Positions 26,388 to 51,292 of a stretch of 64,000 bases of DNA are shown here, in pieces (the first letter of the stretch is position 1; each line of letters starts with the position of its first letter). This DNA comes from Octopus sinensis (Eukaryota). The notes below the pieces were generated by a model. It was not told the origin of the DNA. It did no database searches and saw only the letters and a list, made by a program, of their open reading frames with translations. Both the position numbers and the translations under genes were made by a program. The DNA is taken from the NCBI RefSeq assembly GCF_006345805.1, contig NC_042998.1, forward strand, positions 157,108,001 to 157,172,000, in the 5' to 3' direction.

Positions 26388-26422
<35 letters not shown>

Positions 26423-26613
26423 AACAAAAATTCTTATAACTATCAGTATAATTAGGGTTCAGCAAAAAATTTGCTTCACCACATACGGAAATTTAGAAAT
26501 AGCAGCCAAAACTAGCTATTTTTCTACCATAAGAAAATCTCTCGGACAACACTACTCAACAATCCACGTAGGCAAAGAGAAAAAAAATAACGAATTCACT
26601 CGGCTTAGATTAA

Positions 26614-26696
26614 CTGTGGCTGCGTTTCGGAGTTAAATAGATATGAAAACTGCAAAAACCACATTTCCATTCTATCATTCTCGCTCGTCAGCACAG
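26614..26696 (-). ncRNA. Type I hammerhead with long stem II; cleavage triplet mutated
   Basis: ctgtg-CTGACGA-gcgag...ctcc-GAAAC-gc-AGC-cacag; stem I ctgtg/cacag. The sister copy at 27343 keeps GAAACGCGTC. Confidence 0.75.
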
Positions 26697-26839
26697 TATT
26701 TCAATATTTTAAATTTGAGGGCACTGTACAAAATTGAACATACCTTATCTGACATTGAATGTAATTTGTCTGATGCCGCTTGGTCAGATTAGGTATGTTC
26801 AATTTTTTACAGTGCCCTCAAATTTAAAATCTTGAAATA

Positions 26840-26922
26840 CTCTGCTGAAGAGCGAGAATGATATAATGGAAATGTGGTTTTTGCATTTTTCATATCTATC
26901 TAACTCCGAAACGCAGCCACAG
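26840..26922 (+). ncRNA. Type I hammerhead with long stem II (mirror copy); cleavage triplet mutated
   Basis: ctctg-CTGAAGA-gcgag...ctcc-GAAAC-gc-AGC-cacag. Confidence 0.72.
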
Positions 26923-27125
26923 TTAATCTAAGCCGAGTGAATTCGTTATTTTTTTTCTCTTTGCCTACGTGGATTGTTGAGTAGTGTTGTCCGAGAGATT
27001 TTCTTATGGTAGAAAAATAGCTAGTTTTGGCTGCTATTTCTAAATTTCCGTATGTGGTGAAGCAAATTTTTTGCTGAACCCTAATTATAATTATAATTAT
27101 ACTCATAATTATAAGAATTTTTGTT

Positions 27126-27184
<59 letters not shown>

Positions 27185-27888: not shown

Positions 27889-27924
<36 letters not shown>

Positions 27925-27932
27925 ATTATTAT

Positions 27933-28482
27933 TTCTAAATCTCTCAACGAGACCCATTCAGTAACAATACTCTAAAGTAAAGATTATTTGCCAACATAAT
28001 GTGGCAGTCCCGGTTAGGACGAATGTTACTGTTATTTAGTCCCAGGAAACATTGTCTCCAGCTGGCTATGCGACACACTGTGTCCTTGTATTCTCGTAAA
28101 GCCAGCTGGAGACGATGTTTCCAGGGGCTAAATAACAGTAACATTCGTCCTAACCAGGACTGCCACATTATGTTGGCAAATAATCTTAATTATAGAATAC
28201 TGTTACTGAATGTCTCTCGTTGAGAGATTTAGAATTAATAATTTTTCTCTTTATTAGATCAGTGATGTGTGTCATTTTGAAAATTATATATATTTTCGAA
28301 CAGGAATTTGATAGCGCCAGGCAGTTATTCTAGGCTGAGTGAGGATGCTAAACTCCCCTGTTCGAGAATATAAGGACACAGATAGTGTGTCGTATAACCA
28401 GCTAGAGACGGTGTTTCCTGGGGCTAAATAACAGGAACATTTGTCCCAACCGGGACTGCTACATTATGTTGGCAAATAATCT
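27933..28482. repeat. Fold-back palindrome (arms about 140 bp, 27933-28234) plus a third arm copy at 28365-28482
   Basis: Direct arm comparison; mirrored ORFs 27944-28168(-) and 27999-28223(+); starts just after (TA)n. Confidence 0.92.
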
Positions 28483-29679: not shown

Positions 29680-30079
29680 ACATCGTGAATGATATTTGCC
29701 TCCTAAATGTGGTTGATCCATATGGGACGATGCTAATGTAGTTTATAGTCTCAGGAAGACATCTCCTCCAGCTGGCTAATGAGATCAGCGTCTTTTTGTC
29801 ACTAGAAAAAACATATATATTTGCATTGGAAATATCACTTCCCATACCCTAGCCGATGATTGTCACACTCTGATGACAGGTTACCACTCAGAAACACGGG
29901 TCCGTGTGTATCACGTCAGACTAGAGATGGGAACGATGAATTCCCTTTGCAAATACTGATAGACCACAGACACTGTGTCATTAGCCAGCTGGAGGAGATG
30001 TCTCTTGGGGCTATAAACTACAGTAGTCTCGTGCGATATGGGTCATCCACATTTACATGGCAAATATTCTTCATGATGT
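29680..30079. repeat. Inverted-repeat element (arms about 110 bp) related to 27933-28234, with a central hammerhead-like motif
   Basis: Arms 29680-29793 and 29968-30079 share ctccagctggcta with the 28-kb element. Confidence 0.85.
29864..29908 (+). ncRNA. Hammerhead-like motif in the spacer of an inverted repeat
   Basis: cacac.t-CTGATGA-caggttaccactca-GAAAC-acgg-GTC-c.gtgtg; stem I cacac/gtgtg, weak stem II. Confidence 0.55.
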
Positions 30080-49988: not shown

Positions 49989-50047
49989 TCAGTTAAATAT
50001 ATTTTGAAATCTGATGAGTAATACAAATGTATGAAAGCGCTAACTGA
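49989..50047 (+). ncRNA. Minimal hammerhead-like motif
   Basis: CTGATGA-gta-atac-aaat-gtat-GAAAG-CG-CTA-actga; palindromic stem III AGCGCT; stem I partner tcagt is displaced upstream. Confidence 0.55.
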
Positions 50048-50372
50048 ACTTCATGAACATCACCAAATATTTTTTTAGTGTTTAACACACTTCAACATTG
50101 TAAATAATTATTTTAAGATACAACAATAAAAAAAGGTAAAAACTAGATCATGTTTTAACTTTATTAACTAATATATATAAGATCCAGGGATGAGGTATAG
50201 GAAGAAAGTTAGCTTCAAGCAACCCGCAGTAAATATAAAAACAATATTCAGGGACTATAGTGGTTTATTGAGACGGAATGTTGTGGATTTTTTTCCGTAT
50301 CAAAATACGATAAATTGACAAAAGTTTCACGGTAAGCGACCGGGGTTGCCGGGTGTGTGAATAAGGATACAT

Positions 50373-50730
50373 GAGTTAAGGAATGGCGTAGACAAAATCT
50401 GGGCTACATATGTTTCATAGCGAGCGGAACCTCAGAGGTGGTAAATATCCAAGTGAGGTGTGTATACCACATGCTACTCTTCAGGCAAAGGACATCTTGA
50501 TTAAATGAAAGTTTACATTGTCGCAAGGAGGTACATGTTAACACACTGATTGAACCTTCCATGTGTTAACATGTACCTCCTTGTGATAATGTAAACATTA
50601 ATTTAATCAAGATATCCTTGGCTTGGAGAGTAGCCTGCGGTATACACCTCACTTGGATATTTATTATTTCTTAGATTTCGCTCGCTATGAAACATGTAGT
50701 CTGGATCTAATCTACTCCATTCATTAACTC
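50373..50730. repeat. Fold-back palindrome (arms about 170 bp, 16-nt spacer) with a hammerhead motif in each arm
   Basis: 50373-50545 versus 50562-50730; arms diverged mostly by transitions; ends on (TA)n. Confidence 0.92.
50402..50487 (-). ncRNA. Type I hammerhead with intact core and long stem II
   Basis: gc-CTGAAGA-gtagc..cctca..tgagg..gctat-GAAAC-ATAT-GTA-gc; mirror copy 50620-50701 (+) is degenerate (TTGGAGA...GAAACATGTA). Confidence 0.75.
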
Positions 50731-50734
50731 TTAT

Positions 50735-50793
<59 letters not shown>

Positions 50794-50794
50794 T

Positions 50795-51288
50795 AATATT
50801 GAGGGGTCAGCAAAAGAAATGCATCACCACATACCGAAGTTCAGAAATAGCAGCCAAAATCTAAGCCATTTCTTCTACTTAAAAAAAGGGTCTACCAGAG
50901 AAACCATAATACTTGAATCTTATTCATCCAGTCAGAGGGTAACGCAACGAAAATCAATCAATATCCGATTATCCATAGACGCGCGTTTCGGAATCAGGAT
51001 TCAAGTAAAGAATATCCAAAAATATAAACTTTACTAACCACATTCCTCTTCAGTATGCAAAAATCCGAAGGTACTAAAACATTAGAATGACTCCTTCAAT
51101 GTAACGGTCGCTAATGCTAGTACCGCCAGATTCAAAACAAGAATGAAAGTCGCTTAGCCTCCTCTGCCTTTCCACGTTTGTCTTCAAGTAAATGCTACAG
51201 AAAAATCAGCAGTAGGTTCTCATGGAGAAAAATCTATTATCAATAGCAATTAAGGGTAAAACTAATTAATTAGTTTTACCCTTAATTG

Positions 51289-51292
<4 letters not shown>
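50795..51292 (-). mobile_element. Hammerhead-bearing non-coding element between two (TA)n tracts, same family as the 26.4-kb arms
   Basis: ggggtcagcaaaagaaatgcatcaccacataccgaagttcagaaatagcagccaaaa matches 26454-26511; ends in a perfect 50-bp palindrome. Confidence 0.8.
50974..51057 (-). ncRNA. Type I hammerhead ribozyme, fully intact consensus, long stem II
   Basis: cata-CTGAAGA-ggaat..agtaaag..ctttact..attcc-GAAAC-GCGC-GTC-tatg. Confidence 0.85.

What the first reader, a model, noticed from the sequence alone, without database searches (positions are those of the whole stretch)
50373..50730. Second, sequence-unrelated element with the same two-hammerhead fold-back architecture
Seen: arms of about 170 bp around a 16-nt loop. 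The minus arm has an intact core (CTGAAGA...GAAAC-ATAT-GTA) and the plus arm a decayed one. The sequence is unrelated to the 26-27 kb element, yet the layout is the same: central hairpin, then long-stem-II hammerheads, then (TA)n. Many arm mismatches are transitions, compatible with G:U pairs or with age. Inference: recurrence in two families within 25 kb points to a general mechanism or element class rather than an accident.
Basis: partly seen in the sequence, partly recalled or inferred. Interest (0 to 1): 0.75.

Follow-up and report, generated by a model that had tools for sequence, protein, structure and literature searches.

The report
Back-to-back Penelope retrotransposon ends
The hairpin is two short, decayed end-pieces of one abundant Penelope-type jumping gene, each carrying that element's hammerhead-ribozyme motif, lying back-to-back in a TA repeat; this layout is already known for these elements, and the fact that one arm always stops at one fixed point and the other at a second point 200 bases further on suggests each insertion is likely started twice, once from each side of the cut DNA.

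Summary
The fold-back is real: arms about 82% alike, 16-nt loop, minus-strand hammerhead core intact, plus-strand core decayed. It is not a new element class. Both arms are 5'-truncated 3' ends (pseudo-LTR with a type I hammerhead) of one Hydra-clade Penelope-like retrotransposon: 2142 candidate places in this genome, and long copies carry a decayed RT plus C-terminal GIY-YIG with the Hydra motifs. About half of sampled copies have a head-to-head partner. In 32 of 32 classifiable pairs one arm ends at site A and the other at site B, 200 nt downstream, which favours twin priming over snap-back. Arms decay independently, with no G:U bias and no real covariation, so the hairpin is an insertion scar, not a selected RNA. 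The 26-27 kb element is a sequence-unrelated ~600-nt retrozyme that probably uses the same machinery. Head-to-head copies with two hammerheads are published (Penelope-13_HM). This scan has already noted the same pattern, including the two fixed ends, in other families of this genome.

The parts
50180..50545 (-). Left arm: 5'-truncated 3' end of the Hydra-clade PLE, read on the minus strand, ending at site B (pseudo-LTR plus ~200-nt tail)
   Evidence: Profile positions 798-1175; short (TA)n beyond 50180
50180..50372 (-). Tail (site A to site B). In long copies it lies between the pseudo-LTR and the start of the next ORF.
   Evidence: 1341 candidate places; L175 and L173 run from the tail into the ORF start with the RWK motif
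50391..50497 (-). Type I hammerhead: core CTGAAGA 50484-50478, 61-nt helix II insert, GAAA, self-complementary helix III ACATATGT, predicted cut after GTA between 50405 and 50404; helix I weakened by a G>T change
   Evidence: Cleavage was not tested.
50546..50736 (+). Right arm: 5'-truncated 3' end of the same family, read on the plus strand, ending at site A directly into (TA)n
   Evidence: Profile positions ~784-976
50546..50561 (+). The 16-nt 'loop': ordinary family sequence, the extra 5' part of the right arm, starting about 3 nt from the family's 5'-end hotspot
   Evidence: junction aligned to both continuations
50610..50714 (+). Decayed hammerhead (two core changes, 2-nt loss in helix III, helix II changes)
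50733..50792 (.). (TA)n target microsatellite, shared with the neighbouring retrozyme copy
   Evidence: (TA)n/(TG)n/(CA)n follows most family 3' ends
50770..51292 (-). Neighbour, a separate insertion: diverged copy of the ~600-nt retrozyme family of the 26-27 kb element, with an intact-looking hammerhead at 51053 (-) and a short inverted end-piece

Best explanation
The element is two 5'-truncated copies of the 3' end of a Hydra-clade Penelope-like retrotransposon joined head-to-head inside a (TA)n repeat, likely laid down in one event in which the element's enzyme cut both DNA strands and started reverse transcription twice, at site A from one side and at site B from the other. Shown: family identity, the two fixed 3' ends, the A+B pairing rule, the tail running into the ORF start in long copies, the 5'-end hotspot, and independent neutral decay of the arms. 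Inferred: the RNA begins near the hotspot (pseudo-LTR promoter), so cDNAs primed in the leader run off after about 200 or 400 nt; the two cDNA 3' ends are then joined, often at short microhomologies. The hammerhead is the ordinary pseudo-LTR hammerhead, duplicated passively; the present copy is probably inert.
For: Copy gradient typical of 5' truncation: 2142 candidates for the arm, 202 for the adjacent 3'UTR, 156 for the EN end, 13 for the RT N-terminus. Long copies L061-L064 and L172-L175 carry RWK, ADKT, FDVPMG, GLY.DD, FLDVTL, CxCx5C, IVY..YIG and CxxC..E..N..CxH, the features that define the Hydra clade in PMC8557442. The RT fragment hits 9 proteins of 574-743 aa, best E 8e-18; the EN fragment aligns to the C-terminus of the best one, E 3e-14, which has a GIY-YIG match. 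3' ends: 63 at site A and 73 at site B of 154. Of 41 head-to-head pairs, 32 have both ends classifiable and all 32 are A+B; 20 of 20 in the sets chosen without the tail, p about 1e-6 at 50:50. The A arm reaches further 5' in 15 pairs, the B arm in 13, equal in 4; in 5 pairs the arms do not overlap at all. L061 shows the same layout with a ~3-kb spacer holding the ORF. An Anolis PLE cleaves and extends both strands, starts at two internal sites that bound the tail, and is predicted to be a dimer (PMC11167929).
Against: No biochemical test was done. The family is old and star-like (arm pairs 84.9% identical, random copies 82.6%), so one versus two RNA templates cannot be told apart. No intact copy of this family was found, and Pfam names none of its fragments. 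Two EN-fragment homolog searches found nothing. Nine of 41 pairs have an end that could not be classified. Target-site duplications cannot be read in (TA)n. Microhomologies at junctions were inspected by eye, not tested against a control. No contig was shown to bridge this locus's own junction.
Confidence: 0.85

Rival explanations
1. Self-priming or snap-back: one cDNA (or an antisense template) folds back at the small ACACAT...ATGTGT hairpin and copies itself, as proposed for PLE palindromic junctions.
For: PMC3846280 proposes self-priming for head-to-head PLE junctions. The finding's junction sits on a small family hairpin. The 26.4-27.1 kb retrozyme pair is A+A with 97% identical arms, as a later fold-back would give.
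Against: A copied arm must be contained in the first arm. In 5 of 32 pairs the arms do not overlap, and in 15 the tail-less arm holds the spacer while the other arm holds 200 nt that it lacks. Junctions are scattered over hundreds of positions. Spacer inversion by later recombination could blur polarity but cannot produce non-overlap.
Confidence: 0.08
2. A functional two-hammerhead fold-back RNA or MITE-like unit (viroid- or retrozyme-like) that spreads as a whole: the first reader's possible new class.
For: Very stable hairpin. Many inverted pairs. Hammerheads are over-represented in inverted repeats in the sample.
Against: Every pair has its own breakpoints, so the fold-back is not copied as a unit. 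Each strand has only one hammerhead, and in the hairpin its core is paired away. Arms share no more derived changes than random copies (0.0044 vs 0.0037 per site). There is no strand bias of G:U-compatible transitions: chi2 19 on 21 df; this locus 12 vs 6, p 0.24.
Confidence: 0.04
3. Two independent insertions into the same (TA)n, or an assembly artefact.
For: (TA)n is a hot target: a retrozyme copy did insert beside the finding. The left arm shares four derived characters with L002 that the right arm lacks.
Against: There is no (TA)n between the arms, the arms abut directly, and the A+B rule holds in 32 of 32 pairs. The arms differ by 18%, which a mirror artefact would not give. Identical left-arm pieces occur in runs labelled as two other organisms.
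Confidence: 0.03

Closest known systems
Hydra clade of C-terminal EN+ Penelope-like elements (Craig et al. 2021, PMC8557442), especially Penelope-13_HM and Hydra-1_Obim
   Same: Protein motifs, (TA)n target and a type I hammerhead near the 3' end. Penelope-13_HM is listed with a 5'-truncated inverted copy at its 5' end and the same hammerhead on both strands.
   Different: A different family: its hammerhead differs from the one listed for Hydra-1_oBim. The helix II insert is 61 nt, against short stem-loops in the listed Hydra hammerheads. The tail is ~200 nt against the usual 30-40 nt. The unit is about 3.7 kb by my rough sum, against <3 kb.
PAc (Poseidon of Anolis carolinensis; Frangieh et al. 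2024, PMC11167929)
   Same: Two internal RT start sites downstream of the hammerhead define the tail; both target strands are cut and extended; AT-rich targets.
   Different: Different clade. The two sites there bound a 30-40-nt tail inside the ORF start; here they are 200 nt apart in the 5'UTR. In the two of four parts I read, the paper does not link the two sites to the two arms of inverted copies.
Adineta vaga EN+ Penelope insertions (Arkhipova et al. 2013, PMC3846280)
   Same: Head-to-head inverted pLTRs are the commonest arrangement; the tail is optional at one inverted pLTR; microhomology-joined 5' junctions; an Inr-like ACATT.
   Different: They interpret the junctions as self-priming; the data here favour two priming events.
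Animal non-LTR retrozymes (PMC7229834; bioRxiv 10.64898/2026.07.22.740005)
   Same: Describes the 26-27 kb family and the neighbour at 50.8-51.2 kb: a non-coding tandem unit with one type I hammerhead.
   Different: The finding itself is not a retrozyme: it is a truncation product of a protein-coding element. The ~600-nt unit is longer than the 170-400 nt reported.

Membership tests
Hydra-clade EN+ PLE | Single ORF: RT followed by C-terminal GIY-YIG endonuclease | tested here: met
   Order seen in L061-L064. RT fragment hits 574-743-aa proteins; EN fragment aligns to the C-terminus of P0001; GIY-YIG in P0001 and P0008. All family copies seen are broken.
Hydra-clade EN+ PLE | N-terminal RWK motif | tested here: met
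   QMRWKAL in L175, QMQWK in L173
Hydra-clade EN+ PLE | DKG modified to DKT | tested here: met
   ADKT in L172, L174 and L175; TDKT in L177
Hydra-clade EN+ PLE | CxCX5C linker; CxxC and CxH around conserved E and N; no CCHH in EN | tested here: met
   CSCRHPSSC-type linker (middle C often F), KCDLC..E..LNE..CKH, and no CCHH seen in the GIY-YIG core
Hydra-clade EN+ PLE | Insertion into (TA)n | tested here: met
   3' flanks listed
Hydra-clade EN+ PLE | Type I hammerhead in the pseudo-LTR | tested here: met
   Motif and helices in 117 copies, 89.7% of cells paired. No Rfam match at the gathering score. Cleavage not tested.
Hydra-clade EN+ PLE | Length under 3 kb | tested here: inconclusive
   No full copy. 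The pieces sum to roughly 3.7 kb, including a 190-nt tandem duplication in the 3'UTR. The paper says 'generally' short.
Hydra-clade EN+ PLE | Placement in an RT phylogeny with published Hydra proteins | not tested
   Published sequences were only read in the supplement and compared by eye
PLE insertion structure | Partial tandem (pLTR + tail upstream of ORF) and an inverted 5'-truncated copy at the 5' end, tail on one side only | tested here: met
   L175 and L173; L061; 32 of 32 pairs A+B
Non-LTR retrozyme (for the finding) | Non-coding tandem repeat unit with one hammerhead per unit | tested here: not met
   The family continues into a 3'UTR and ORF; no short tandem unit containing the hammerhead was seen
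Non-LTR retrozyme (for the 26-27 kb family) | Non-coding tandem unit with one type I hammerhead | tested here: met
   ~600-nt unit in partial tandems in many of 60 loci; no shared ORF found
Non-LTR retrozyme (for the 26-27 kb family) | Expression as linear and circular monomer RNA | not testable with these tools
   No RNA data laid for it

The most novel reading that the evidence does not exclude
Penelope-like elements integrate by obligatory twin priming. A dimeric RT-endonuclease primes one target strand at site A and the other at site B of the leader RNA, so every two-armed insertion is asymmetric (A+B). The same machinery mobilises retrozymes, and this genome holds tens of thousands of type I hammerheads, many with a 40-80-nt helix II insert and a self-complementary helix III, as a fossil record of the process.
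Probability: 0.6. Interest if true: 0.45.

Novelty: new member of a known kind. Interest (0 to 1): 0.22.

Why it matters
The locus itself is an old, probably inert insertion. Its value is as data on an open question named in PMC8557442: how PLEs make their tandem and inverted structures. The strict A+B rule and the non-overlapping pairs give a sharp prediction for the existing in vitro PLE system: two cDNAs per event, one from each start site, on opposite target strands. They also argue against the self-priming reading in print. The 200-nt tail makes the two sites easy to tell apart. The long-helix-II hammerheads are a small addition to ribozyme diversity.

Tried and rejected
Rfam on the window: the 150 listed of 212 matches at E<=1 were microsatellite-type noise with no hammerhead family. 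On three family loci there was nothing at the gathering score. Pfam on family fragments and on the L195 ORF gave no useful hit. Homolog searches with EN fragments found none. The protein atlas returned only unnamed eukaryote clusters. Single-strand folding of isolated hammerheads was not better than shuffles (z from -1.4 to +0.4). Covariation in 50 of 117 copies was weak: pairs with a change on both sides 6 vs 6.3 shuffled; covariation score reached by 11 of 500 shuffles; double changes mostly at CpG-CpG pairs. I do not count this as support. The test for one versus two templates by shared derived changes was uninformative. The G:U hypothesis was rejected. Sequencing runs: no RNA holder listed; no contig shown bridging the hairpin junction. 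No autonomous partner was found for the 26-27 kb family in 60 loci. A genome-wide inverted-repeat scan was not possible; 800 kb of 2.7 Gb was sampled instead. Paper searches. In none of the passages I read from the papers they returned was the A+B rule stated or a cephalopod long-helix-II hammerhead described. Subscription-only papers (Arkhipova 2006; Cervera and de la Pena 2014) were not searchable, and bioRxiv supplements were closed, so either may bear on this.

Full report
Observation. The fold-back is there. Local alignment of the two arms gives 137 matches, 18 transitions, 9 transversions and 4 gap columns. The loop is 50546-50561, and the whole folds at -211 kcal/mol, z -26.7. The minus strand has CTGAAGA at 50484, a 61-nt helix II insert, GAAA, the self-complementary ACATATGT and the triplet GTA. 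The plus-strand copy has two core changes and a 2-nt loss. The finding shows no similarity to the 26-27 kb family by blastn or by profiles in either direction.

What it belongs to. The host is a 2.7-Gb animal genome; earlier scan notes call it an octopus, which I did not test. The left arm has 2142 candidate places, 40 scored. Walking along the family, the candidate count falls to 202, 156 and 13, the gradient of a 5'-truncating retrotransposon. Long copies carry broken but clear RT and endonuclease sequence: QMRWKAL, ADKTGNLY, FDVPMG, GLY.DD, FLDVTL, CxCx5CPL, IVY..YIG and KCDLC..E..LNE..CKH. These match the definition of the Hydra clade of Penelope-like elements (PMC8557442, section 11 read) and, by eye, the Hydra proteins in its supplement. 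An RT fragment finds 9 proteins among 659 candidates, best E 8e-18. An EN fragment aligns with the C-terminus of the best one, E 3e-14, and two of three scanned carry a GIY-YIG match. Pfam does not name the family's own fragments, and two EN searches were empty.

Anatomy. A profile of the 3' 1175 nt was mapped on all family loci. Of 154 distinct segments reaching the 3' region, 63 end at site A (profile ~976), 73 at site B (~1175) and 18 elsewhere, and most A and B ends are followed by (TA)n, (TG)n or (CA)n. One query set was tail-selected, which inflates B. The A-to-B stretch is the tail: in L175 and L173 it runs on into the ORF start, the partial-tandem layout of PLEs. The 5' ends cluster too: 52 of 150 segments start at 760-799, many at ATTCTGATTG. 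The sets were chosen for full arm cover, but the tenfold drop in candidates upstream agrees. I infer that this is the RNA's 5' end. The finding is a B arm (50180-50545, minus) joined to an A arm (50546-50736, plus). Its 'loop' is only the extra 5' sequence of the A arm.

The pairing rule. 22 of 45 arm-selected loci and 11 of 28 tail-selected loci have a head-to-head partner. Of 41 distinct pairs with gaps up to 120 nt, 32 have both ends classifiable, and all 32 are A+B (three B arms cut short inside the tail); 9 are unclassifiable. In the sets chosen without the tail it is 20 of 20 including this locus, p about 1e-6 at 50:50. No convergent pair was printed. The A arm reaches further 5' in 15 pairs, the B arm in 13, equal in 4, and in 5 the arms do not overlap. 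Breakpoints differ at every locus. L061 is the same design with ~3 kb of element between the arms. Many junctions show 2-7 shared bases by eye (no control run).

Mechanism. An Anolis PLE protein cuts and extends both target strands, starts cDNA at two internal sites that bound the tail, and is predicted to be a dimer (PMC11167929, parts 1-2 of 4 read). The simplest reading here is two primings per insertion, one at A and one at B, from opposite sides of a cut in (TA)n, with the two cDNA ends then joined. This step is inferred. Snap-back, proposed for PLE junctions in PMC3846280 (passages read), cannot give non-overlapping arms.

The hammerheads are passengers. In 117 copies the majority state forms helices I-III, and 28 of 117 keep the core and helix III intact. 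Core columns are 92% conserved against 89% overall, and the least conserved columns are CpG. Pair counts on 50 of the 117 give 89.7% paired but no excess of doubly changed pairs. Arms of a pair are 84.9% identical against 82.6% for random copies and share no more derived changes (27 pairs). G:U-compatible transitions show no strand bias over 21 pairs. In a read-through transcript the hammerhead is locked in the hairpin, and this copy's helix I is mutated.

Why two in 25 kb. The 26-27 kb family (1375 candidates) is a ~600-nt non-coding tandem unit with one hammerhead, i.e. a non-LTR retrozyme (class described in PMC7229834, passages read; PLE origin argued in bioRxiv 10.64898/2026.07.22.740005, part 1 of 5 read). 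It also has two ends and, by eye, mostly A+B pairs; the window's own pair is an A+A exception with 97% identical arms. A diverged copy sits in the same (TA)n as the finding. In 80 arbitrary 10-kb stretches a strict descriptor found 16 hammerheads against 0 in each of 5 shuffles, about one per 50 kb. Ten of 16 have a helix II insert over 40 nt, and most have a self-complementary helix III. Two of 14 hammerhead loci lie in local inverted repeats covering ~1% of bases, p about 0.01; most of the 28 inverted repeats have none. Two such elements within 25 kb is therefore unremarkable.

Known or new. Inverted 5'-truncated copies, a tail on one end and (TA)n targets are described. Penelope-13_HM, a Hydra element, is listed with an inverted copy and the same hammerhead on both strands (supplement part 2 of 59). 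What I did not find in the passages read from searches is the strict A+B rule, a 200-nt tail, or these long-helix-II hammerheads. Earlier notes of this scan report the two-fixed-ends pattern in other families of this genome; a search by this sequence found nothing. I reached the A+B result before reading them. Verdict: a new family of a known clade in a known layout, interest 0.22.

Noticed in passing
window 50770-51292: Diverged copy of the ~600-nt retrozyme family inserted in the same (TA)n, with a strict-intact hammerhead at 51053 (-) and a short inverted end-piece
   Followed up: partly
window 50010-50050 (+): Hammerhead-like core (CTGATGA...GAAA) in another high-copy repeat just left of the finding; helix I does not pair
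   Followed up: no
window 26417-27131: Retrozyme pair with both arms ending at the same site and 97% identical, unlike most pairs of its family; possibly a later fold-back or conversion
   Followed up: partly
window 27908-28259 and 29680-30079: Two further fold-backs that resemble each other by eye; the second has a decayed hammerhead-like core
   Followed up: no
L195:1-3300 (G000:C1:100000001 onward): Young Hydra-type PLE of another family: 615-aa open frame, 100% identical inverted 5'-truncated copy, hammerhead at +2982, ends in (TA)n
   Followed up: partly
L206:1-1530, L244, L213, L239: Further hammerhead repeats: ~470-500-nt tandem units, one young and head-to-head (L206), and another fold-back family (L239)
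   Followed up: partly
L186-L265 (800 kb sample): About one intact-looking type I hammerhead per 50 kb, which extrapolates to tens of thousands genome-wide; many with 40-80-nt helix II inserts and palindromic helix III
   Followed up: partly
window 50420-50500 and L002:1509-1632: The left arm shares four derived characters, including a 2-nt insertion, with distant copy L002; the right arm has none. This suggests a second template or gene conversion.
   Followed up: partly
window 50693: One contig of run X1 carries the 2 nt that the assembly lacks in the right arm's helix III (allele, assembly slip or another copy)
   Followed up: no
family 3'UTR, profile 499-687 (e.g. L055, L059, L171): A ~190-nt tandem duplication in the 3'UTR of many long copies, up to several units in L171
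   Followed up: no
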